The position numbers and the translations under genes were made by a program. Below are positions 2,338 through 26,356 of a stretch of 34,976 nt of DNA, piece by piece. The first letter of the stretch is position 1; every line of letters starts with the position of its first letter. The stretch comes from Treponematales bacterium (GTDB lineage Bacteria; Spirochaetota; Spirochaetia; Treponematales; JBGSOB01): the NCBI GenBank assembly GCA_041739325.1, contig JBGSOB010000111.1, positions 1 through 34,976 of the forward strand. Direction: 5' to 3'. The notes under the pieces were generated by a model, which was not told where the DNA came from, did no database searches, and was given only the letters and a program-made list of their open reading frames with translations.

Positions 2338-3864
2338 TTAGCGCGTAGGGAGCTTTGCCAGCTTTTTACCGTTTACCGACTCGTCCGAAGGAAGCAAATT
2401 CCAGAGGTCGTTGTTGTGCCAGAGGGCGTAGGGGAGGGCATGGTCGATCTCCAGCGACTTTATCTTCATGCCAGTCCACACACAGCCCAGGCCCTGGCTC
2501 AAGTAGGGCCGATACATGTCGCTTGCCAGCACGGTGCTGCGTTCGGGAAAGAGTTCTTGATCTAAGAGATTGATCATCCCTCCCTTTTCTATGCCCGGGC
2601 TTTGTTTAGGCAACTCCGCCGTATAGCCCGCCCAGTTTAGGATGAGGGAGTCCCGTATCCAGGGGCCTAAGAGGCAAAACTCTTTCCAGAGTTTTGAGCC
2701 CATGCAGAGGAGGCTGCCCTTCATGGAAAAAAGGGGGCCGCCAAGACGGGCGTTCGATTTTCCCGAGTAGACAACCGGGCCGTTTATGATGGCGCTACGG
2801 ATTTTTTCAAAGACGAGCGCCGCTGTCTTTAATTTTTCCCCACTCATACTGCCTGAACGCAAAGCGGAAAAAAAGGGAGAGCGGCCCATCGCGCCGCCCC
2901 ATTCGTCGATAAGGGTTTTTAGCTGGTTGCGGAAGATGATGTCCTGCCGGTTTTCTTGCTTGGGCCCTTGGAGTATGCCGCGGGCATCGGCGACAAGGGG
3001 CCAGTAGTATTCAAGCCATTTTTCTACGATGAGTTTTATGTCTATGCCTACCCTGTCGTCCGGCAACCAGACGGCGTTGCGGTAGCTTGTCATGGCTATC
3101 TCCGCCAAGGCGCGCAGGAGGGCAAACTTGTAGCTGGTGGTTTTAACGTCATTTCGAATAATCGACTCTATCTTTTCCAGCGGCCGCAGCTCCTGCCCAC
3201 CCGCCTCCTTCCTAAAGACAAGGGATTCCCAGCTTATGCCGGGACGGCTAAAGCCGTCGGAGTGCTTTGCGCTGTCGATAAGGCGGTAGCCTAGGCGGGA
3301 GAGGTGGAAATCGTAGGCGGAGCCGGGCCGCAGGCAAAAAAGGCGGCCGTCGGGGTCGCGGGGCAGGCCGTCGGGGCCGGGGGAGAGCCCTGCGTAGCTA
3401 CAAGGATGGACGATGATAATGGTGCCGCCCTCCGCCACAAGGCGGTGGAGGGAAAAAAGGCTGTCAAAGAGTTCGTTTTCTTGAATGTGTTGAACGACGG
3501 CGGAAAGGAGGATTGCCGCAAAGCCGCCCTCCTTGAGAAAGGGGGCCTTAGCGAGGTCTAGCTCAGGCAGACAGCCCTCCGCGAGGCGCTCCGGGCCGAG
3601 GGAAAAGCGGGCGGCGGCTTGGGCGCGCATAGCCGCGGCGGGTTCTATCCCATAGGAGTCGTAGCCTCCCTCAATGAGGGCGGCTATGTCCCGGCCGCTA
3701 CCGGCGCCAATGTCGAGGATACGGGTTTTAGGCTTTTCCGGGCCTACAGCCGCGCCGGGTAGAAACCGCTGGATTAGTTCGACTGCCGCAGAGGGTCTGA
3801 CCCCATAGAGTGCGGCTTTTTCCGCGGCATGGCTTTCGTAGACTGACGAAGTGAGGGCATCCAT
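2338..3864 (-). CDS. Three-part fusion protein: N-terminal class-I SAM methyltransferase, central domain of unknown function, C-terminal HNH/DUF1524-type nuclease
   Basis: ILDIGAGSGRDIAAL is a Rossmann SAM-binding motif I. No DPPY/NPPF or PCQ DNA-methyltransferase motifs are present. The C-terminus EIDHALPYALWHNNDLWNLLPSDESVNGKK fits the HNH/DUF1524 pattern (DH..P ... N..LLP ... N..K). The RBS is weak. Confidence 0.65.
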   Translation of the reverse strand: MDALTSSVYESHAAEKAALYGVRPSAAVELIQRFLPGAAVGPEKPKTRILDIGAGSGRDIAALIEGGYDSYGIEPAAAMRAQAAARFSLGPERLAEGCLPELDLAKAPFLKEGGFAAILLSAVVQHIQENELFDSLFSLHRLVAEGGTIIIVHPCSYAGLSPGPDGLPRDPDGRLFCLRPGSAYDFHLSRLGYRLIDSAKHSDGFSRPGISWESLVFRKEAGGQELRPLEKIESIIRNDVKTTSYKFALLRALAEIAMTSYRNAVWLPDDRVGIDIKLIVEKWLEYYWPLVADARGILQGPKQENRQDIIFRNQLKTLIDEWGGAMGRSPFFSALRSGSMSGEKLKTAALVFEKIRSAIINGPVVYSGKSNARLGGPLFSMKGSLLCMGSKLWKEFCLLGPWIRDSLILNWAGYTAELPKQSPGIEKGGMINLLDQELFPERSTVLASDMYRPYLSQGLGCVWTGMKIKSLEIDHALPYALWHNNDLWNLLPSDESVNGKKLAKLPTR

Positions 3865-6215: not shown

Positions 6216-7422
6216 ATGCCTACGCCTAAGAAAACCTTGGGTATAATCGGTATTATTGCCATTACAAGCGTATTATTTCTTGCCTGCCCCGTATCTCCAG
6301 GGGAGTTTGTCCAGCCTACCCCCGAGCCGACCCCAGTTCCTACGCCCGTGCCGCAACCAACGCCCACGCCTCTTGTGCTCGTATTCCAGGTTGAGAAGGA
6401 ATCTGTTATAGACACAAGCTTGGCAGGGCAGGCCACTGCCCAGGCAGGAATTCCGCTTGCTATCGAGGCTGCTGAGCTTACGGGGCATGTCTTTGCTCGC
6501 TGGACGGTAGTCAGCGGTTCGAACGTCACTATCGCCAATGTTTTTTCCGCAAAAAACCATGGCTACTTTGGGCGCAGACGCCACCCTTAAGGCTGTCTAC
6601 CGAACGGCTTATCTCAACCCCTTTAATGGGCATTCTTACAAGCTTATAGCGACAACGCGGACCTGGGCGGAAGCGCGGGCGGACTGCGAAGCCATGGGTG
6701 GCTACCTTGTGACAGTCACCTCCCTTGAAGAAAAAAACTTTGTAACGATGGTGCTTTCAACTCAAGCAACTCCAAGCTTTTGGTATGGGGCTTTCCAGCC
6801 CCAGCCAGAAGTGGCTCCTTCCGCAAATTGGCAGTGGGTGACAGGAGAGCCGTGGAGCTATACTAACTGGAATAGTGGTGAACCGACTAACAGTGCAGGC
6901 AATGAACACTTTCTTGCTACAGTGAGCACAGGCGGTGTATGGAACGATTATCCTGGCACTACGCTCTTGGGTTATATTTGTGAATGGGGCTGGGAGGACA
7001 GCTATCTACCTAAGTCGAGTTATGAAGGCCATCGCTATAGCTTTATAGACCTCAGTATGACTTGGGAACAAGCCGATGATTACGCAAAACAGCTTGGGGC
7101 TAAACTCGCTTCAGTCAACTCCGCAGCTGAATCTGAATTTATCCTTTCCATGATAGCTGGCGGAACACGGAGCTAGTATTGGCTTGGAGGCTATCAAAAT
7201 GGTAGCCCGGCAAATCCGGCCTTGGATTGGTACTGGGACGATAATAATGATGAAGTCGTGGATGTGCCCATAAACAGCGCTGGCTATCAGAATTGGGTTT
7301 CCGGCCAGCCGAATGATCTTCCCTCTGGGGCGAACCGTCTTGTACTGAGAAAGTCCGATGGTCAGTGGCTTGATGAGGTGAACAGCCCCAGCGTGCCCAC
7401 GGGCATCATACTCGAGTGGTAA
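6216..7422 (+). pseudogene. Inactivated paralog of the tandem C-type-lectin-domain lipoprotein (one frameshift plus one in-frame TAG)
   Basis: Three ORF-track pieces (6216-6590, 6538-7176, 7222-7422) align collinearly with the intact paralog at 7482-8678. The frame shifts in the A6 run near 6553-6558. At 7174-7176 an in-frame TAG sits where the paralog has Tyr (TRS*YWLGG vs TRNYYWLGA). The N-terminus carries lipobox FLAC. Confidence 0.6.
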
Positions 7423-7481
7423 AACGCGAAGGATAGATAGCAGTCGTCATATTATATGTGAAGGTTCTTTGGAGGAATAGC

Positions 7482-8678
7482 ATGAGTATCGCCCGTGAAA
7501 AAATGATAGTTCTTGGACTTGGTTTTATTATTTCTTTAGTTTTGACGGCCTGTCCCCCGGTTGATGAGCTTGATTTGGAGCCAACGCCAAGCCCGACGCC
7601 GACTCTGGAACCAAGCCCCAGCCCCAGCCCAGTGCCTTACCAGCTGAGCATTCAGGTGAAGATTGAGGGAGTAGTAGACGCAGGTCGCGCTAGCCAAGTG
7701 GCTGTCCCCGTGGGCCAAGAAGCGCAAATCCGGGCATTAGCCATTAGTGGGAACATCTTTTGCCGTTGGGAAATTCTCAGCGGGGCAGGTGCCTCTATCA
7801 TGGATCCCTTTGCCGCTCAAACAAGCCTCAGTATTCAGGCGGACACAGTGCTTACGGCTGTCTATGTCAATGCCTACTATAACGCCTTTAATGGCCACTC
7901 TTACAAGTTGGTAAATGGAGCTCAAACCTGGGTCCAAGCCCAGGCGGCTTGCGCGGCTATGGGCGGGCACCTTGTAGCCATAGCCAACGCCGAAGAGCAG
8001 AGTTTTGTAAACCTTCTTTTGAACCGGCCAGAGGCGAGCGGGACCCAGTATTGGTATGGGGGCTTTCAGCCCCTGACGAGTAATGAACCTCTTGGAAATT
8101 GGCAGTGGGTGAGCGGTGAGCCTTTGACCTGGGGGAATTGGTCCGCAAGTCAGCCTGACAACGTGGGCGGTGAGCACTATATGCACTCAGCAGATAAGAC
8201 TGGTACCTGGAACGATAATACGGCTGTAGCGACGTTGGGCGGCTATATCTGCGAATGGGGCAATGAAACGAGCTATATTCAAAAGGTAAAATTCGGCGGC
8301 CATCGCTATGCCTATTCTGACCTTCAGATGACTTGGGATCAGGCAAAAGACTATGCGGAAAAGCTGGGTGGGCGGCTTGCGATAATCAGCTCGCAAGCGG
8401 AAAACGATTTTGTTTACTCTCTTATCGGGCCGAGTGTAGGCACGCGAAATTATTATTGGCTAGGTGCGCGGCAGATAGGGGTTTTGGAAAATACCGAGGG
8501 TTGGGAGTGGCTCAACGGTAATTCTCTTTCCAGTACCCTGGTTTTCCGAAATTGGGGGACTGCCCAACCCGACGGGGCTAATACCGGAACAAATAAATTG
8601 ATGATTTCCCGTTCCGAGGGTACGTGGTTTGATGAAGTAGGTAGCAATCTTAATGGCATTCTCATTGAATGGGAATGA
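7482..8678 (+). CDS. Lipoprotein with a Pro/Thr/Ser linker, a beta-rich domain and two tandem canonical C-type lectin domains (CTLDs)
   Basis: ATG at 7482 with a GGAGGA RBS, lipobox LTAC. Each CTLD shows the full W..A...C...GG.LA.I....E..F....W.G....W.WV.GEP...NW...QPD....EH.....G.WND....GYICEW pattern. QPD and WND Ca/sugar-binding motifs are present. Confidence 0.75.
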   Translation: MSIAREKMIVLGLGFIISLVLTACPPVDELDLEPTPSPTPTLEPSPSPSPVPYQLSIQVKIEGVVDAGRASQVAVPVGQEAQIRALAISGNIFCRWEILSGAGASIMDPFAAQTSLSIQADTVLTAVYVNAYYNAFNGHSYKLVNGAQTWVQAQAACAAMGGHLVAIANAEEQSFVNLLLNRPEASGTQYWYGGFQPLTSNEPLGNWQWVSGEPLTWGNWSASQPDNVGGEHYMHSADKTGTWNDNTAVATLGGYICEWGNETSYIQKVKFGGHRYAYSDLQMTWDQAKDYAEKLGGRLAIISSQAENDFVYSLIGPSVGTRNYYWLGARQIGVLENTEGWEWLNGNSLSSTLVFRNWGTAQPDGANTGTNKLMISRSEGTWFDEVGSNLNGILIEWE

Positions 8679-18969: not shown

Positions 18970-19764
18970 TCATAGCACGGTCTCTGGGCCTTCGAGGAGG
19001 GAATGCAAAAGGATGTCGGGGCCGAAGAGTTCCTTCTTTGATTTTTTCTTGAGCTTGTGGAGGTAGATGTCGTGGTGAATGTGTTCTGCCGTCACGCGGG
19101 CAAGGAGGGGGTTGGTGGAAAAGGTTCCGCAGAGTTCCCCGTCTGGCGCGGCGGCGGCGATGAGGGCGGCCTTCATATCGCAGACGAGCATGAGGCGCTT
19201 TTCATCGCCGGGCGCCGCGGCTTGACCTACCGCGAAGAGCTCGATGGGCAAGCCGCTTATGCTAAAGGAGCCGAAGCTGAAAACGATGATGCGTACCCCG
19301 CGCTCTGCGGCCGCCCGCAATCCCTCTCCTAAGAGCGCGGGGTCGATGCATGTGTTGATATAGATTTCGCGTTGGGCGGCATCTATAAGTTGGCCCGCCT
19401 TTTCCAGCACCAGCTGGGTTCCCTGCACGTTGACGAAGGCTTGGCTGGGGCCCTCCCTTCGTAGGGTGGAAAGGGCCGCCACAACCCGGTGTGCCGAATC
19501 GCGTAAGCGTTTTTCAAGCTTTGAAAAGAGAGCCTCGGGCTCTTCCGCGCGATAATTCTGGGTTTCCCCCGGCACGGCGTAGACGGCGCCCCGCGCTTGC
19601 AGGGCGTCCAGCGCCGCGTAAACCGAGGAGCGCGATTGGCCGATGCGTTTTGCTATTTGCGAGCCGTTGAGCTCTCCAGTACCTGCCAGGTCCAGGTAGA
19701 CCCTGGCTTCCATAGCGGAAAAACCGGCCTTTTCCAAATCGCTCAAGATTGCGTCTAGCTTCAT
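18970..19764 (-). CDS. TrmB-family transcriptional regulator
   Basis: True start MKLDAILSDLEKAGFSAMEARVYLDL (TrmB HTH) at 19764 with a GGAGG RBS. The upstream 125 codons of the ORF-track entry run across the repeat array and are not coding. Confidence 0.7.
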   Translation of the reverse strand: MKLDAILSDLEKAGFSAMEARVYLDLAGTGELNGSQIAKRIGQSRSSVYAALDALQARGAVYAVPGETQNYRAEEPEALFSKLEKRLRDSAHRVVAALSTLRREGPSQAFVNVQGTQLVLEKAGQLIDAAQREIYINTCIDPALLGEGLRAAAERGVRIIVFSFGSFSISGLPIELFAVGQAAAPGDEKRLMLVCDMKAALIAAAAPDGELCGTFSTNPLLARVTAEHIHHDIYLHKLKKKSKKELFGPDILLHSLLEGPETVL

Positions 19765-19817
19765 CCTTCCTCCGCGCTTTGCCGAGCCCCAAAGCCTCAG
19801 GCATCGGGTGGGTAGAA

Positions 19818-19990
19818 GGGAGGGTCCGGCCCTCCCTTCTAGGGCTCTTGGGTGATAAAAACTTAAGCGGGGGAGGGCCCTCCCTTCTCTGCTTTTAGGG
19901 TCATACAAGGGTTGCGAGGGAGGGTTGCCCCTCCCTTCTAAGATTCTAGGGACATAAAAACCTACCGAGGGAGGGCCCGCCCTTCTTGCT
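19818..19990. repeat. Four ~50-bp tandem units, each with a GGGAGGG-n(0-5)-CCCTCCC hairpin followed by TTCT...TAGGG
   Basis: GGGAGGG occurs at 19818, 19871, 19918 and 19969, each followed by CCCTCCC (CCCGCCC in unit 4) then TTCT. The array lies in the divergent intergenic region between the trmB-like gene and the AAC(3)-family gene. Confidence 0.5.
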
Positions 19991-20844: not shown

Positions 20845-20895
20845 GAACCGCGTGGAAATACATTGTACTTTGGGCGCACTATGACGCGGAGCGCT

Positions 20896-21774
20896 TTATA
20901 ATGCGGCCCGCGTTATGACGCGGCGCGCAAAGTAGCCCATGAGTGCTGAGGCTTCTTTTTTTTGCCCGAAGTCCCAGGCCTTCAAGGCTTGATAGACAGA
21001 TTCGGGGATAAAGCCTCCGCTGACTTCCTTATCCGCGATGCGCGACACTATCTCTTGAAAGCGCGGGTCAGCACGCAGTTCCGGATAAACGGCGGCGGGA
21101 ATGGAAGAGAGAACGTCTGCGAGGTGGAGGATGTCGTACCAGACAAAGGGGAGCTTGAGTTTGCGGAAATCCGTTCCCATATAAAAGATATAGGGATGAC
21201 GCTGGCGACTGTTTTGCCAGAGCTCTAGCAGGCAGGCAGCTCCGGCCTTGATAAGGGGGGCGTAGGCTGGCTTACCGGCACTTACCAGGAGCTTTATCAT
21301 GATGAGGGTGGCGTAGGGACAGGGGTCCGACTTCTTGCCCGGCCCGCGCCAGGAGAGGGTTTTTGAAACCTCGCAGCCCCAATGCCGCAGCTCCTTGTTA
21401 AACCGGGCTGCCAGGGCGTCTACAGCGCCCATAAGCTCTTTTTGAGGATAGCCTAGGCGCAGGAGTGCAGAGAGGGTAGTTGGGGCGTCGCAGAGGGCCC
21501 AGGCCCAGGTCTCTTCTCCATTCCCGCCGTGGGCGGCGCTTATCTTCATGGGCAGGAGGGGTATTCCCTCTTCATCCCGCTTGCTCAGTGCCTTGGCGGC
21601 TATTTCCGCGATGCCTTTATCCTTCATGCCCAAGCCGAGGTCCGCAAGGAAGGAGAGTTTATGGAAGGCTTGATTGGCGCTCTTATGGCTGGCAAGAACC
21701 TCTCCCGGCCAGGCCCCTAGCTCCTTGATGATTTCCTGTACGCGCGGGTCCTTTGACCAGTCTTGAGCTTCCAT
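20896..21774 (-). CDS. Hypothetical protein, possibly an alpha-helical repeat (alpha/alpha-toroid-like) fold
   Basis: GGAGG RBS 4 nt upstream. It lies 13 nt downstream of the preceding gene, so an operon is likely. No definitive motif. The toroid suggestion is weak. Confidence 0.45.
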   Translation of the reverse strand: MEAQDWSKDPRVQEIIKELGAWPGEVLASHKSANQAFHKLSFLADLGLGMKDKGIAEIAAKALSKRDEEGIPLLPMKISAAHGGNGEETWAWALCDAPTTLSALLRLGYPQKELMGAVDALAARFNKELRHWGCEVSKTLSWRGPGKKSDPCPYATLIMIKLLVSAGKPAYAPLIKAGAACLLELWQNSRQRHPYIFYMGTDFRKLKLPFVWYDILHLADVLSSIPAAVYPELRADPRFQEIVSRIADKEVSGGFIPESVYQALKAWDFGQKKEASALMGYFARRVITRAAL

Positions 21775-23483: not shown

Positions 23484-24083
23484 TCAGCTATGTGGCAGGA
23501 GGGAGGGGATGATGGAGAGAACGAGGAGGGCCGCCATAGACCAATTAAAGACCTTGAGGCGGCCTGGGCTGGAGAGCCAGCGCTTTACCACCGTGCCAAA
23601 GAGGGTCCAGGAGGAGACGGCGCAAAAGGCAATGACGATGTTTATGACCCCGTCGAGAATGAGGGAGGGCCAAAAGGCCGAGGGTTCGGTGAAGTTGGTA
23701 ACCACGGTAATGGCAGCTACCCATGCCTTGGGGTTGATCCACTGGAAGGCGGCCGAGCCCAAGAATGTCATTGGTTTTTCTTGCTTGGCGCCCTCGTGGA
23801 AGCCCTTGGAAGTGCCTATCTTCCAGGCAAGGAAAAGAAGATAAGCCAGGGCGGCGTACTTGAGAATGACAAAGGCCAGGGGGTAGGCTTGGAGGAGGGC
23901 TCCCAGGCCTGCGCCCATCAAAGCCAGCATAATCCCAAAGCCCAAGCAGACCCCAAGGATGTGGGGCAGGGTCTTGCGGTAGCCGTGGTTTGCCCCGGTA
24001 GCGAGGGCTATGAGATTGTTCGGCCCGGGCGTAAAGGCGGAAACGATGCTAAAAACAAAGAGGCCGGCAAGAAGACTGAAATT
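23484..24083 (-). CDS. LysE/RhtB-family amino-acid exporter
   Basis: MNFSLLAGLFVFSIVSAFTPGPNNLIALATGANHGY... is the typical LysE N-terminus. Six TM helices. GGGAG RBS. Confidence 0.75.
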   Translation of the reverse strand, partial: NFSLLAGLFVFSIVSAFTPGPNNLIALATGANHGYRKTLPHILGVCLGFGIMLALMGAGLGALLQAYPLAFVILKYAALAYLLFLAWKIGTSKGFHEGAKQEKPMTFLGSAAFQWINPKAWVAAITVVTNFTEPSAFWPSLILDGVINIVIAFCAVSSWTLFGTVVKRWLSSPGRLKVFNWSMAALLVLSIIPSLLPHS

Positions 24084-24101
24084 CATAGAGTTAACTCCCA
24101 A

Positions 24102-24336
24102 GCGATCCCCAATTCCTTGGCTATGCTTAAGAGCCTTTTGTCATGGGTGTAGATGCGGCAGGGTAGGGCAAGACAGGTAGAGAGGAGCTGGGCGTCTACC
24201 CAGCCGATTCCCTTGCTTGACCAACCCAGTTCCAAGATATTCTTCAAGGCTTGATCATCTTATAACGCTTTACCAATGAAAATTGGCTGAGCCTAAAATG
24301 TTCTATCCAGACGCTCGAATCCACAAGGATGTTCAT
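24102..24336 (-). pseudogene. Degenerate PIN-domain VapC-like toxin (frameshifted and shortened)
   Basis: The N-terminus MNILVDSSVWIEHFR is a PIN/VapC start, then a premature stop follows. A second frame continues ...GWVDAQLLSTCLALPCRIYTHDKRLLSIAKELGIAWELTL, a VapC-like C-terminus. Total length is far below ~130 aa. Confidence 0.4.
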
Positions 24337-24338
24337 GT

Positions 24339-24503
24339 TCAGGGTGCGGTAAAGGTAGGCCGACGCTCGGCTGCCAAAGCCTGGGGGTCTGAACCTCCAT
24401 AGGCCCTAAGGCCTGCCTTGAGGATGTCTGTAATGCGTTCTAGGCCTGAGGCTTCACGAGCGCGGGTAACGATGTCGTCAGGTAGCATGACTGTATATTT
24501 CAT
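24339..24503 (-). CDS. Ribbon-helix-helix (CopG/VapB-like) antitoxin-like small protein (54 aa)
   Basis: MKYTVMLPDDIVTRAREASGLERITDILKAGLRAYGG... has an RHH beta-strand-helix-helix pattern. Its stop lies 2 nt before the vapC-like ATG. Under 60 aa, so absent from the ORF track. Confidence 0.4.
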   Translation of the reverse strand: MKYTVMLPDDIVTRAREASGLERITDILKAGLRAYGGSDPQALAAERRPTFTAP

Positions 24504-24576
24504 GGGTAAAAGCATGTATGTAATTATACATAAGAGTCAAGAAGGAGAATCAGGGCCATAAACCGCTCTGGGTTGT

Positions 24577-24780
24577 GGGGGAGCGGACCGTTGAGCCTTC
24601 GTTCCCGGCGTAAAAATACCCATCGGGCATAGGTCCTGAATGAAAAAAAACACGGCTCACTTGTCCTCGCTTCGCTGCGGGAACCGTTCGCCGCGTTTTT
24701 TTTCATTCACCCATGCCCAGTGCGTTCATCGCGCCGGGAATGAAGGCGCAAGGGCCTGCATTCCTGGCTGTCGGTGGGGA
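24577..24780. repeat. Nested-hairpin repeat element, copy 1 (MITE-like / structured-RNA-like)
   Basis: A 64-nt 5' block and a ~70-nt 3' block are shared with copy 2. Outer inverted arms are TTCCCGGCG...GGGCATGG and CCATGCCC...CGCCGGGAA. The inner stem is perfect: GAATGAAAAAAAAC (24638-24651) with GTTTTTTTTCATTC (24695-24708). Confidence 0.55.
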
Positions 24781-25118
24781 AAACGCGGCTCCCCCTACGC
24801 TCCAGCCTCCTCGGCGCTCTAGCTTTTGCCTGAGGCCGGTCTCAAAGAGCCCGGCCCTTTGTGGTTTAAAGCGCCTGCGGGGTCTTCCGCTGCCCCCACT
24901 GTGGGGCACGAACTGATATCGGCGTAATCGCCAAACAAACCCCGCCCCCGAAAAACGCTAGATGAGTTCAGGGGGAAGCGAGAAGGAATAGCCTTAATGC
25001 ACGGCCATCCCAAAACTCTAGATGACCTTATCAAAGCGAACACTTAAGAGCATAATCGTGGTAGGAATGAAGGAGGCGCCTATGGATGTAGTTTTGAAAC
25101 AGCCTCAATACATCACCG

Positions 25119-25229
25119 ATGGGCTCTTATAGCATCGAGTGGAAGTCTTCGGCCGCGAAGGAATTCCGCAAACTCCCCAAACAAATATTCACCGGGGAGC
25201 GGACCCTTGAGCCTTCGTTCCCGGCGTAA
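25119..25229 (+). pseudogene. RelE/ParE-like toxin N-terminal remnant cut by repeat copy 2. A 21-aa remnant ORF with a strong RBS lies just upstream (25067-25132)
   Basis: MGSYSIEWKSSAAKEFRKLPKQIF matches the RelE/ParE N-terminal pattern ([IL]x[FW]xxxAxKE[FW]RKL). The reading frame then runs straight into the repeat at ~25191 and stops. Upstream, GAAGGAGG precedes MKEAPMDVVLKQPQYITDGLL*. Confidence 0.35.
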
Positions 25230-25421
25230 AAATACCCATCGGGCATGGGGCCTGGGCAGGGGAAAACCGCCGCTCACTTGGTCCTCCTTTAGGGGTAGAA
25301 TTCCTAGGGCTAAACGTGCGGAAACGTTCTCGGCGGTTTTCCCCTGCCCACCCATGCCCAGTGCGTTCATCGCGCCGGGCATGAAGGCGCAAGGGCCTGT
25401 GTCCCTGGCTGTCGGTGGGGA
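25194..25421. repeat. Nested-hairpin repeat element, copy 2
   Basis: Same 5' and 3' blocks as copy 1. The inner stem differs in sequence but is again perfect: GGGCAGGGGAAAACCGCCG (25254-25272) with CGGCGGTTTTCCCCTGCCC (25331-25349). The loop shares GCTCACTTG(G)TCCTC with copy 1. Confidence 0.55.
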
Positions 25422-25555
25422 CTCTATCGGGGGCTCCTCGCGTTTTCGGCTTGGGCTTAAAGCGGCGCCACGTTTGGCGCCTAGGCTCAGGCTGGATGCC
25501 TCCGGGCTCAGTAAATATTTCCTGTGATTTTGGGCAGAACCAATTAAGGTTTTTT

Positions 25556-26161
25556 CTACAATGTCCTTTTAAAGCCTTTGATCAATAACCAAAGGGGCAA
25601 AAATAATTCAAATATGCCACCTGGGGCAATAAAAATTATACCATAACCAGTATAGATTTTAATTATTCCCATAAAATCAAAAATAGAACCAATAACTAAT
25701 AATGCATAACCAACTAAACCTAATATTGAAAGAATCCTAGGAAGGAGTTTAGATTTATACAACAAGTATGAAAATATAAGACCACTACTACCAGTGAATA
25801 GGCAGAGTAAAGAATCAAATTTAGGAAATATTTCCAATTGGAAGAGCGCATATACTCCCGCTCCGAGAATAACCGCTAATTCAATGATTCTAATAATTGC
25901 ATAACTCAGACTCAGCATTCTATTGATATTTTTTAAAACAGAAAAAACTAATATTCCGATGAGAGCAACGGCTAGGCCATCGAGCACCTGAAGTAAAACT
26001 CCGCAAATCAATCTCATAATGCCTAAATCAGTATTAATAAAATATGAATCTATAAGCCTACTGCCGGCCATAAATACAACTGTCGCCAGTAAGAATAAAA
26101 TGCCAATGACTCTTGCCTTTACATTAGCCCTTTGGGTTATTGTGCTTGTTTCATTTTCCAT
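25556..26161 (-). CDS. Multi-pass membrane protein (possibly DUF4386-like), encoded in low-GC DNA
   Basis: 201 aa with about six hydrophobic helices. Local GC is well below the ~60% of the flanks. AAAGGTG RBS. Confidence 0.5.
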   Translation of the reverse strand: MENETSTITQRANVKARVIGILFLLATVVFMAGSRLIDSYFINTDLGIMRLICGVLLQVLDGLAVALIGILVFSVLKNINRMLSLSYAIIRIIELAVILGAGVYALFQLEIFPKFDSLLCLFTGSSGLIFSYLLYKSKLLPRILSILGLVGYALLVIGSIFDFMGIIKIYTGYGIIFIAPGGIFELFLPLWLLIKGFKRTL

Positions 26162-26356
26162 CGTCGTACACCTTTATTGGTTCGGTAAATATCGTACAAC
26201 AATATCGACGTGCCAAATGATATTTTCGTATACTAAAAAATAAAAAAAAGAATATTGGCTTCGCATATTCACAAAATGAATGTGTATACCATGGCCAGAA
26301 CCAGATATCGCCACTTACCCCCGGCTGTTAAGCCACGTTTTCGATCATTTAGGGCT

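What the first reader, a model, noticed from the sequence alone, without database searches (positions are those of the whole stretch)
24577..25421. Two copies of a ~200-230 bp nested-hairpin element whose inner stems differ but stay perfectly complementary
Copies at 24577-24780 and 25194-25421 share a 64-nt 5' block, GGAGCGGACC(G/C)TTGAGCCTTCGTTCCCGGCGTAAAAATACCCATCGGGCAT... They also share a ~70-nt 3' block, CCCATGCCCAGTGCGTTCATCGCGCCGGG(A/C)ATGAAGGCGCAAGGGCCTG...TCCTGGCTGTCGGTGGGGA. The 5' and 3' blocks are themselves imperfect inverted repeats (TTCCCGGCG...GGGCATGG / CCATGCCC...CGCCGGGAA), forming an outer stem. The central core is entirely different in sequence between copies. In each copy it still forms a perfect inner stem: 14 bp GAATGAAAAAAAAC/GTTTTTTTTCATTC in copy 1, 19 bp GGGCAGGGGAAAACCGCCG/CGGCGGTTTTCCCCTGCCC in copy 2. 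The loop segment GCTCACTTG(G)TCCTC is conserved. Structure-preserving replacement of a whole stem is the signature of a selected fold. This points to a MITE-like mobile element or a structured small RNA rather than random duplication. I cannot assign it to a known family from sequence alone.
Basis: seen in the sequence. Interest (0 to 1): 0.75.

Follow-up and report, generated by a model that had tools for sequence, protein, structure and literature searches.

The report
Two-copy palindromic hairpin repeat, MITE/REPIN-like
Two copies of a roughly 200-base non-coding DNA element that folds into one long hairpin sit in a stretch of decayed toxin-antitoxin genes; it looks like a new, lineage-restricted member of the ordinary class of small palindromic repeats (MITE/REPIN-like), and no other copy could be found.

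Summary
Two direct copies (24578-24780, 203 nt; 25194-25421, 228 nt) share a 61-nt 5' block and a 73-nt 3' block at 95% identity. Their flanks are unrelated, and each copy folds into one long hairpin (z -5 to -9).

The inner stems are not "entirely different". They are homologous: 8 contiguous base pairs differ, every difference is a transition, and each is matched on the other arm. The apex also carries a 24-nt indel. All covariation lies in this one patch, and the 43 pairs of the outer helices show none.

Neither strand folds better than the other. Rfam has no match, no ORF is conserved between copies, and the window holds no transposase, integrase or reverse transcriptase.

GGGGA is the only flank repeat shared by both copies. 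Copy 2 cuts a relE-like reading frame after 24 codons.

No other copy turned up in the window, GTDB genomes, JGI metagenomes, IMG/VR, plasmids, phages or a 5.8-billion-protein set. The source is one contig of a poorly sampled, possibly Treponema-like MAG.

Best reading (0.5): a non-autonomous palindromic repeat of the MITE/REPIN/bcr1 kind. Rivals are tandem structured sRNA paralogues and an inert local duplication. Modest interest.

The parts
24578..24780 (.). Copy 1 of the hairpin element (203 nt)
   Evidence: Direct-repeat families D1 and D2. nhmmer E 5.5e-66. RNA MFE -108 kcal/mol. DNA MFE -53.6, z -5.4.
25194..25421 (.). Copy 2 of the hairpin element (228 nt)
   Evidence: nhmmer E 2e-76. 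RNA MFE -134.9. DNA MFE -68.4, z -7.3.
24583..24610 (.). Copy 1, outer stem (helix 1), 5' arm. It pairs with 24732-24759.
   Evidence: Inverted repeat I2: 28 nt, 82% complementary. Arm alignment.
24732..24759 (.). Copy 1, outer stem, 3' arm
   Evidence: I2.
24637..24656 (.). Copy 1, inner stem (helix 3), 5' arm: TGAATGAAAAAAAACACGGC. It pairs with 24690-24709.
   Evidence: Inverted repeat I4: 20 nt, 95% complementary.
24690..24709 (.). Copy 1, inner stem, 3' arm: GCCGCGTTTTTTTTCATTCA. The T8 run after the apical hairpin reads as a weak terminator-like site.
   Evidence: I4. Terminator-like site at 24677-24691 plus a T run.
24657..24689 (.). Copy 1, apical region (33 nt) with the conserved segments TCACTTGTCCTC and CTGCGGGAACCGTTC
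   Evidence: Alignment A2.
25199..25226 (.). Copy 2, outer stem, 5' arm. It pairs with 25373-25400.
   Evidence: Pattern hits on both arms. Arm alignment.
25373..25400 (.). Copy 2, outer stem, 3' arm
25253..25272 (.). Copy 2, inner stem, 5' arm: TGGGCAGGGGAAAACCGCCG. It pairs with 25331-25350.
   Evidence: Inverted repeat I3: 20 nt, 100% complementary.
25331..25350 (.). Copy 2, inner stem, 3' arm
   Evidence: I3.
25273..25330 (.). Copy 2, apical region (58 nt). It includes a copy-2-specific 24-nt insertion at 25290-25313, inside the unique segment TTTAGGGGTAGAATTCCTAGGGCTAAAC (25288-25315).
   Evidence: Alignment A2. That segment is unique in the window.
24760..24780 (.). Copy 1, 3' end. ATTCC pairs with the 5' GGGGA. 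A conserved unpaired 15-nt tail, GGCTGTCGGTGGGGA, follows and ends in GGGGA.
25401..25421 (.). Copy 2, 3' end with the same 15-nt tail ending in GGGGA
25123..25193 (+). Context: a relE/parE-like N-terminal fragment (MGSYSIEWKSSAAKEFRKLPKQIF, 24 codons) that runs straight into copy 2. No C-terminal remainder lies downstream.
   Evidence: Six-frame translation. No Pfam, NCBIfam or PDB match.
24104..24515 (-). Context: a vapB-like small ORF (24339-24515) followed by a frameshifted, internally deleted vapC (PIN) pseudogene (24104-24338). It lies just left of copy 1.
   Evidence: Pfam PIN, E 1.2e-4, profile positions 64-119. NCBIfam VapC N-terminus, E 7.6e-4. Frames.

Best explanation
The two copies belong to a lineage-restricted, non-coding, non-autonomous palindromic repeat of the MITE/REPIN/bcr1 kind.

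Each unit has three parts:
- a 5' GGGGA;
- a hairpin of about 180-200 nt, made of a sequence-conserved imperfect outer stem, an internal bubble, and an inner stem in which only pairing is conserved;
- a conserved unpaired 15-nt tail ending in GGGGA.

Inferred mechanism. The unit is, or was, copied by an enzyme encoded elsewhere in the genome. That enzyme recognises the conserved outer arms and bubble. The element must also fold back on itself, probably as single-stranded DNA, so the inner stem is free to change as long as both arms change together.

Three features fit strand-specific, site-specific 'peel-and-paste' transposition of the IS200/IS605-RAYT type somewhat better than cut-and-paste by a DDE transposase. 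They are the identical GGGGA at the left edge and right end of both copies, the asymmetric single-stranded tail, and the shared orientation.

What is shown: the anatomy, the discreteness of the unit, the compensated changes, the lack of coding capacity, and the position abutting a truncated gene.

What is inferred: mobility, the enzyme, and the single-stranded intermediate.
For: - The repeat unit is discrete, with identical ends and unrelated flanks on both sides in both copies.
- The arms are imperfect inverted repeats and the whole unit is a long hairpin well below shuffles, equally good on either strand and as DNA.
- It is small (203 and 228 nt), and no ORF is conserved between the copies.
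- The ends are conserved and the centre varies while staying complementary. Nine pairs changed on both sides, all in or beyond helix 3; helices 1 and 2 (43 pairs) have none. [quoted passage not shown] It is also reported for bcr1 (PMC3184786).
- The conserved blocks differ by about 5% (7 of 134 nt), yet all 16 nt of the patch differ. This is easier to explain if the two copies descend from different subfamilies of a larger family.
- The only flank repeat shared by both copies is GGGGA. This recalls the constant TTTAT motif associated with bcr elements (PMC6542083).
- Copy 2 begins 24 codons into a relE-like frame whose remainder is missing. The setting is a 1.45-kb gene-poor stretch of decayed toxin-antitoxin genes, a typical resting place for such repeats.
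- No Rfam family matches.
Against: - Only two copies are known, and they lie 616 nt apart. No third copy was found in the 35-kb window or in any public collection that could be scanned.
- The window holds no transposase, RAYT or integrase.
- No variable target-site duplication is present. GGGGA may simply be part of the element.
- No empty site in a relative could be found, because the nearest relatives are only 50-70% identical at protein level and are not syntenic.
- The missing 3' part of the relE-like gene means a simple insertion cannot be shown.
Confidence: 0.5

Rival explanations
1. The copies are tandem paralogues of a structured small RNA, or of a cis-acting RNA hairpin. They would be transcribed from the + strand. 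The conserved arms and bubble would bind a protein, and the inner stem would be kept by selection on RNA folding, as in adjacent sRNA pairs that share ends but differ in the middle.
For: - Both copies have the same orientation, and their 5' and 3' blocks are conserved while the centre diverges.
- All 8 patch differences are transitions on both arms. This is the path expected through G.U intermediates.
- Every cell of the consensus structure forms a standard pair.
- The RNA folds are very stable.
- A weak promoter-like site on the + strand lies upstream of copy 2 at 25028-25056.
- The architecture (closing stem, bubble of about 13 x 12 nt, long apical stem) loosely recalls 6S RNA.
Against: - No Rfam match appears even at E <= 10, apart from generic hairpin hits to miRNA models. 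There is no 6S hit.
- Neither strand is favoured. The hairpin proper folds to -99.6 (+) and -103.4 (-) in copy 1, and to -126.3 (+) and -120.5 (-) in copy 2. G.U-type and A.C-type arm mismatches are balanced.
- The 39 inner-stem pairs contain no G.U pair.
- The unit has no terminator at its 3' end, and the promoter scan is no better than shuffles.
- Copy 2 starts inside a truncated ORF.
- No homologue was found in any other genome.
Confidence: 0.2
2. The pair is an inert local duplication of a long quasi-palindrome. One hairpin-prone sequence was copied once nearby by replication slippage or ectopic repair. Its arms are kept complementary by a DNA-level process, namely intrastrand template switching or quasi-palindrome correction. 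There would be no mobility and no function.
For: - Only two copies exist, and they are 616 nt apart in a decaying region.
- The inner stems are perfect Watson-Crick with no wobble pairs.
- The covariation is one contiguous patch, which a single templated event can copy from arm to arm.
- The two strands are equivalent.
- No other copy was found anywhere.
Against: - The duplicated segment ends sharply at the same bases on both sides, and no flank was co-duplicated.
- The outer arms are 5% diverged between copies yet remain only 82% self-complementary. Templated homogenisation has therefore not acted there.
- Eight of eight adjacent pairs changed, against about 5% divergence elsewhere. That needs a special cause.
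Confidence: 0.2
3. The copies are integron attC-type recombination sites bounding a toxin-antitoxin gene cassette.
For: - The layout resembles attC: a hairpin with conserved outer boxes, an unpaired spacer and a variable terminal structure.
- The cassette-sized spacing (616-641 nt) encloses toxin-antitoxin remnants.
- From my own knowledge, Treponema species carry chromosomal integrons. The nearest LysE homologues here are labelled Treponema or Treponemataceae.
Against: - The core sites are missing. GTTGAGC occurs only in copy 1 (copy 2 has CTTGAGC), and it lies on the 5' arm. The partner on the 3' arm is GCGCAAG. The polarity is therefore opposite to 5'-RYYYAAC...GTTRRRY-3' on either strand (sequence).
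- The units are 203 and 228 nt, against about 57-141 nt for known attC (my knowledge).
- The window has no intI and no array.
- The relE-like frame is cut after 24 codons rather than ending in the site.
Confidence: 0.03
4. The copies are bidirectional transcription terminators or insulators, either derived from a repeat or evolved in place.
For: In copy 1 an apical GC-rich hairpin is flanked by A8 and T8. The scan reports a terminator-like site on the + strand at 24677-24691, and the arrangement is symmetric on the - strand.
Against: - Copy 2 has only A4/T4.
- The number of terminator-like sites in the region is no greater than in shuffles: 3 found against a mean of 3.1.
- The apical loops (33 and 58 nt) are far larger than in intrinsic terminators.
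- About 130 nt of conserved outer sequence is unnecessary for termination.
Confidence: 0.07

Closest known systems
REPINs (REP doublets forming hairpins, mobilised by RAYT transposases; Bertels and Rainey 2011, PMC3116915)
   Same: - Symmetric palindromic unit with two highly conserved end regions.
- A less conserved spacer whose key property is the ability to form a hairpin, with compensatory changes on both sides.
- Non-coding and extragenic.
- An asymmetric single-stranded tail was proposed for the REPIN intermediate.
- REPINs can occur in local clusters.
   Different: - About twice as long (203-228 nt against roughly 70-110 nt).
- The conserved arms are 60-70 nt, not a 20-25-nt REP.
- No RAYT gene is known for this genome.
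- Two copies are seen instead of tens to hundreds.
bcr1 and related Bacillus cereus-group repeats
   Same: - Palindromic non-autonomous repeat of about 155 nt.
- Flanked by 5-bp direct repeats.
- Compensatory base-pair changes keep a double-stranded structure (PMC3184786).
- Mobility is linked to a constant pentanucleotide motif, TTTAT (PMC6542083). GGGGA plays the parallel role here.
   Different: - No sequence similarity, and a different phylum.
- bcr1 is shown to be transcribed and multi-copy with a non-conserved genomic distribution. None of this could be tested here.
Classical bacterial MITEs (Correia/NEMIS, ERIC/RU-1, RUP, TIMEs)
   Same: - Size of 100-400 bp.
- Terminal inverted repeats.
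- No transposase gene.
- Fold into long stem-loops as RNA (PMC3184786).
- Sit in intergenic or decayed regions.
   Different: - No variable target-site duplication.
- The palindrome runs through the whole element rather than only the termini.
- The right end carries a 15-nt non-palindromic tail.
- No parent insertion sequence is known.
IS200/IS605-derived palindrome-associated elements (PATEs)
   Same: From my own knowledge of the family: insertion next to a fixed tetra- or pentanucleotide without duplication, strand-specific hairpins recognised on single-stranded DNA, and asymmetric ends.
   Different: Those elements have two separate short subterminal hairpins rather than one hairpin of about 90 bp. 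No TnpA or TnpB is present in the window.

Membership tests
MITE | Terminal inverted repeats | tested here: met
   Arms of 28 nt, 82% complementary within copy 1 and similar in copy 2. However, the inverted repeat starts 5 nt in from the left end and 21 nt in from the right end.
MITE | Small size and no transposase or other conserved ORF | tested here: met
   The units are 203 and 228 nt. Six-frame translations show no ORF shared by both copies. A peptide search of 5.8 billion proteins returned nothing.
MITE | Target-site duplication flanking each copy | tested here: inconclusive
   The only direct repeat consistent in both copies is GGGGA. It is identical in the two copies and may be part of the element.
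MITE | Multiple dispersed copies in the genome | tested here: inconclusive
   Two copies lie 616 nt apart. There are no others in the 35-kb contig or in the searchable collections.
MITE | A cognate transposase with matching ends elsewhere in the genome | not testable with these tools
   Only this contig of the MAG is available, and it holds no transposase.
REPIN | Two inverted conserved ends plus a spacer forming a hairpin, with compensated changes in the spacer | tested here: met
   Helices 1 and 2 are invariant. Helix 3 has 8 of 15 pairs changed on both sides.
REPIN | A short REP sequence (about 20-25 nt) as the conserved module, and high copy number | tested here: not met
   The conserved modules are 61 and 73 nt, and only two copies were seen.
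REPIN | An associated RAYT gene flanked by the repeats | not testable with these tools
   None is in the window. The rest of the genome is unavailable.
Integron attC site | R''/R' core sites 5'-RYYYAAC ... GTTRRRY-3' at the base of the hairpin | tested here: not met
   GTTGAGC occurs in copy 1 only and on the 5' arm, opposite GCGCAAG. The polarity is wrong on both strands (sequence).
Integron attC site | An adjacent intI gene and a cassette array | tested here: not met
   No integrase domain is present in any ORF of 120 aa or more that was scanned. Only two units are present.
Known RNA families (Rfam 15, including 6S, SRP and group II intron) | Covariance-model score at or near the gathering threshold | tested here: not met
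   There were 0 hits at gathering thresholds on the whole window. At E <= 10 only generic hairpin hits to miRNA models appeared, plus Chloroflexi-1 at 15 bits against a threshold of 80.
IS200/IS605-type (PATE) element | A fixed pentanucleotide at the left flank and right end, with no duplication | tested here: inconclusive
   GGGGA is at both ends of both copies. With n = 2 this cannot be told apart from element sequence.
IS200/IS605-type (PATE) element | Separate subterminal hairpins at the left and right ends, and a Y1 TnpA in the genome | not tested
   Local alternative hairpins in each arm were seen by eye only, for example GGAATG...CATTCC in the copy 1 3' arm. TnpA cannot be searched for.

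The most novel reading that the evidence does not exclude
The 8-bp inner-stem patch may be a deliberately variable specificity module in an otherwise fixed hairpin scaffold. One possibility is a new type of hairpin-borne mobile element whose inner stem sets partner or target choice. Another is a pair of structured RNAs with distinct 'addresses'. Either would make this the first glimpse of a new class rather than a MITE or REPIN variant.

The observation behind this reading: 8 of 8 adjacent pairs are switched, while the rest of the element differs by about 5%. Uniform drift does not explain that.
Probability: 0.06. Interest if true: 0.6.

Novelty: new member of a known kind. Interest (0 to 1): 0.27.

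Why it matters
If the rest of the genome holds more copies, this would be a new family of unusually long hairpin repeats in an under-sampled, possibly spirochaete lineage. Its inner stem would give a clean natural example of pairing-only constraint. That example could help separate RNA-level selection from DNA-level palindrome maintenance.

Practical points:
- The element breaks short-read assemblies. A Logan unitig ends exactly at the first 31-mer shared by the two copies.
- It marks a decaying toxin-antitoxin locus.

As it stands, it does not bear on any open question.

Tried and rejected
1. Rfam, at gathering thresholds on the whole window and at E <= 10 on 24300-25700. Nothing meaningful. 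No tRNA or tmRNA.

2. Exact-pattern scans.
   - ATGCCCAGTGCGTTCATCGC in GTDB genomes gave 8 hits. None extends to the longer block, so they are chance matches.
   - GTAAAAATACCCATCGGGCAT in JGI metagenomes gave 0 hits.
   - The consensus of both arms, TTGMGCCTTCRTKCCCGGCG, in JGI gave 55 loci, each with a single arm. None extends by blastn or nhmmer. The three best were inspected and appeared to lie in or beside coding sequence, with no matching hairpin.
   - Four IMG/VR scans gave nothing, apart from one chance match in what reads as ordinary coding-type sequence.

3. blastn against PLSDB plasmids and INPHARED phages. No match.

4. A concatenated six-frame translation of both copies searched against 5.8 billion proteins, to catch spurious ORF calls over other copies. 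No hit at E <= 10.

5. Search for empty sites or synteny through neighbouring genes. The DUF4386 neighbour has no relative above 51% identity. LysE relatives reach 70% at most, and their loci are not syntenic and lack the element. Several window proteins are not on record under my ORF starts.

6. Strand assignment from wobble pairs. My first impression, that the + strand has many more G.U pairs, did not survive a direct arm-against-arm alignment or a fold of the hairpin proper.

7. Extension of the repeat into the flanks. Alignment scores are at shuffle level.

8. attC, 6S RNA, retron (no reverse transcriptase nearby) and a small-protein gene were all rejected. The ATG in copy 1's inner stem is absent from copy 2.

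9. Literature search for the sequencing run accession. Nothing.
Full report
**What is in the sequence**

The window holds two direct copies of one element, at 24578-24780 (203 nt) and 25194-25421 (228 nt).
- They share a 61-nt 5' block and a 73-nt 3' block, each 95% identical.
- Sub-blocks of 38 and 29 nt are identical between the copies and occur nowhere else in the window. Shuffles expect 0 matches.
- A whole-window repeat search and an nhmmer profile search run without filters find no third or partial copy.
- Sequence to the left and right of the two copies is unrelated. Local alignment scores equal those of shuffled sequence.

The repeat is therefore a discrete unit with the same first and last bases in both copies, GGGGAGCGG ... 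CGGTGGGGA.

**Anatomy**

Each copy folds into one long hairpin.
- As RNA the z-scores are -7.3 and -9.4.
- As single-stranded DNA they are -5.4 and -7.3.
- The complementary strand folds equally well.

From the outside inward:
- GGGGA pairs with (T/C)TCCT near the 3' end.
- Helix 1 is a 28-nt imperfect outer stem, 82% complementary in copy 1.
- An internal bubble follows: about 13 x 12 nt as DNA, smaller as RNA.
- Helix 2 is GGGCAT(A/G)GG paired with CCCATGCCC.
- Helix 3 is a 20-nt inner stem. It is perfect in copy 2. In copy 1 it has 15 pairs, an A.C mismatch, then 4 pairs.
- The apical region is 33 nt in copy 1 and 58 nt in copy 2, and it contains conserved segments.
- A 15-nt tail, GGCTGTCGGTGGGGA, lies outside the hairpin and is identical in both copies.

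**How the copies differ**

They are not.
- In the first 15 nt of the inner stem, each arm has 7 identities, 8 transitions and no transversion. Chance replacement would give no transversions in 15 positions with probability of about 3e-5.
- The 8 changes are contiguous: AATGAAAA in copy 1 against GGCAGGGG in copy 2. Each is matched on the other arm.
- The consensus structure has 9 pairs changed on both sides. Eight form this one patch, and one lies in a small apical helix.
- The 43 pairs of helices 1 and 2 show no double change, and only two vary on one side.
- Copy 2 also has a 24-nt apical insertion, itself a small imperfect palindrome and unique in the window.
- Outside the centre the copies differ at 7 of 134 positions, so the fully switched patch is not what uniform divergence predicts.

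**What the covariation does and does not show**

Pairing in helix 3 has been preserved through change, so some constraint or process favours the fold-back. Three cautions apply.
- There are only two sequences, and one contiguous patch can arise in one or two events.
- The 39 inner-stem pairs include no G.U pair, and the arm-against-arm mismatches are balanced between G.U-type and A.C-type: 4 against 6 in copy 1, and 5 against 4 in copy 2.
- For the hairpin proper, neither strand folds better.

My early impression of a + strand bias came from the choice of flanks and did not hold up. The data therefore cannot separate selection on an RNA, selection on a single-stranded DNA intermediate, and DNA-level homogenisation of a quasi-palindrome by template switching.

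**Context**

The element lies in a 1.45-kb stretch (24102-25555) with no intact sizeable gene. A LysE-family gene (23484-24101, - strand) is on one side and a DUF4386 gene (25556-26161, - strand) on the other.
- Left of copy 1 is a small vapB-like ORF, followed by a frameshifted and internally deleted vapC. The evidence is a Pfam PIN match at E 1.2e-4 and an NCBIfam VapC N-terminus match at E 7.6e-4.
- Immediately left of copy 2, a frame reading MGSYSIEWKSSAAKEFRKLPKQIF runs into the element after 24 codons. It aligns with residues 2-18 of E. coli RelE at E 0.004.
- No C-terminal remainder of that frame follows copy 2.
- The ORFs of 120 aa or more that I scanned show no transposase, integrase or reverse-transcriptase domain.
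- Promoter-like and terminator-like sites in the region are no more frequent than in shuffles. The A8/T8 pair flanking the apical hairpin of copy 1 does read as a weak bidirectional terminator. Copy 2 has only A4/T4.

**Search for relatives**

- The window is an entire 34,976-nt NCBI contig.
- Its DUF4386 protein recurs only in short Logan contigs from SRR28170473 and SRR28170474.
- One of those contigs ends exactly at 25350. That is where the first 31-mer shared by copies 1 and 2 begins, so the assembly break is explained by the two known copies alone.
- The nearest LysE homologues are 65-70% identical, and some are labelled Treponema or Treponemataceae. This is only a weak hint at taxonomy.
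- Loci around three of those homologues are not syntenic and lack the element.
- Exact-pattern scans of GTDB genomes, JGI metagenomes and IMG/VR found only chance matches or nothing. So did blastn against plasmids and phages and a six-frame peptide search of 5.8 billion proteins.

Absence from these collections says little, because the lineage is barely sampled. The rest of the source genome could not be searched.

**Interpretation**

The anatomy matches the known class of small non-autonomous palindromic repeats: a discrete unit, imperfect inverted arms, no coding capacity, conserved ends, a centre that varies but stays complementary, and a location in decayed DNA abutting a truncated gene.
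[quoted passage not shown] Compensatory changes are common in them (PMC3116915).
- bcr1 of the Bacillus cereus group shows compensatory changes and 5-bp direct repeats (PMC3184786). Its relatives are tied to a constant TTTAT motif (PMC6542083). GGGGA at both ends of both copies here is a parallel.
- A fixed pentanucleotide, the asymmetric single-stranded tail and the shared orientation lean towards a single-strand, HUH-type mechanism. This step is inference only.

I give this reading 0.5. It is not a demonstrated member of the REPIN family: the conserved modules are 61-73 nt, not a short REP; only two copies were seen; and no RAYT can be looked for.

**Rivals**

- Tandem structured sRNA paralogues (0.2). 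Transition-only compensated changes and same-strand tandem copies fit. The lack of strand asymmetry, of a terminal terminator, of any Rfam match and of any homologue counts against.
- An inert local duplication of a quasi-palindrome kept complementary at the DNA level (0.2). Two nearby copies, perfect Watson-Crick stems and a single patch fit. The sharp shared boundaries and the un-homogenised outer arms count against.
- A terminator or insulator role (0.07).
- Integron attC sites (0.03). The core sites are absent or in the wrong polarity, the units are too long, and no intI is present.

**Verdict**

The finding is real and was well spotted, but its central claim is overstated. On present evidence it is a new, lineage-restricted member of a known kind of element, seen in two copies. 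Interest is modest. The one oddity worth keeping in mind is the fully switched 8-bp patch inside an otherwise 95% conserved scaffold.

Noticed in passing
window 19814-19990: Four short GC-rich hairpins of the form GA(A/G)GGAGGG-N2-5-CCCTCCCTTCT lie about 48-51 nt apart. They sit in the intergenic region between a TrmB-like regulator, whose real start appears to be the ATG at 19763 on the - strand, and an aminoglycoside 3-N-acetyltransferase-family gene (+ strand). They look like a local REP/BIME-like or operator array. Perfect copies of the motif occur only here in the window.
   Followed up: partly
window 24104-24515 (- strand): A vapB-like small ORF is followed by a vapC (PIN) pseudogene. 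The N-terminal 30 codons and the C-terminal 52 codons are in different frames, and the middle of the domain is missing.
   Followed up: partly
window 25022-25193 (+ strand): This looks like the remnant of a second toxin-antitoxin operon. A 36-codon ORF overlaps the start of a relE/parE-like frame that is cut off after 24 codons by copy 2.
   Followed up: partly
window about 25000-27000: G+C drops to 44-45%, against 54-62% around it. The segment carries the DUF4386 gene, whose nearest relative is 51% identical, and much of a 483-aa ORF (26357-27808) with no family match. It may be a small acquired island, with the hairpin copies at its left edge.
   Followed up: no
L010 1053-1124, equivalent to window 25350-25421: A Logan contig from SRR28170473 matches the window over the tail compared (window about 25350-25575). 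It stops exactly where the first 31-mer shared by copies 1 and 2 begins, so the element breaks short-read assembly graphs.
   Followed up: yes
window 20880-20928: A 17-nt unit, TATAACGCGGCGCGCGT, is repeated about 2.9 times at 75% match. It lies between the 3' ends of convergent genes and may act as a terminator or as a small repeat.
   Followed up: no
window 6538-7176 and 7458-8678: Two neighbouring C-type lectin domain genes share DNA segments offset by 1271 nt (6780-6859 and 8051-8130). They look like local paralogues.
   Followed up: no
window 2338-3864 (- strand): A single 508-aa ORF combines an N-terminal SAM-dependent methyltransferase domain with a C-terminal HNH endonuclease domain.
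   Followed up: no
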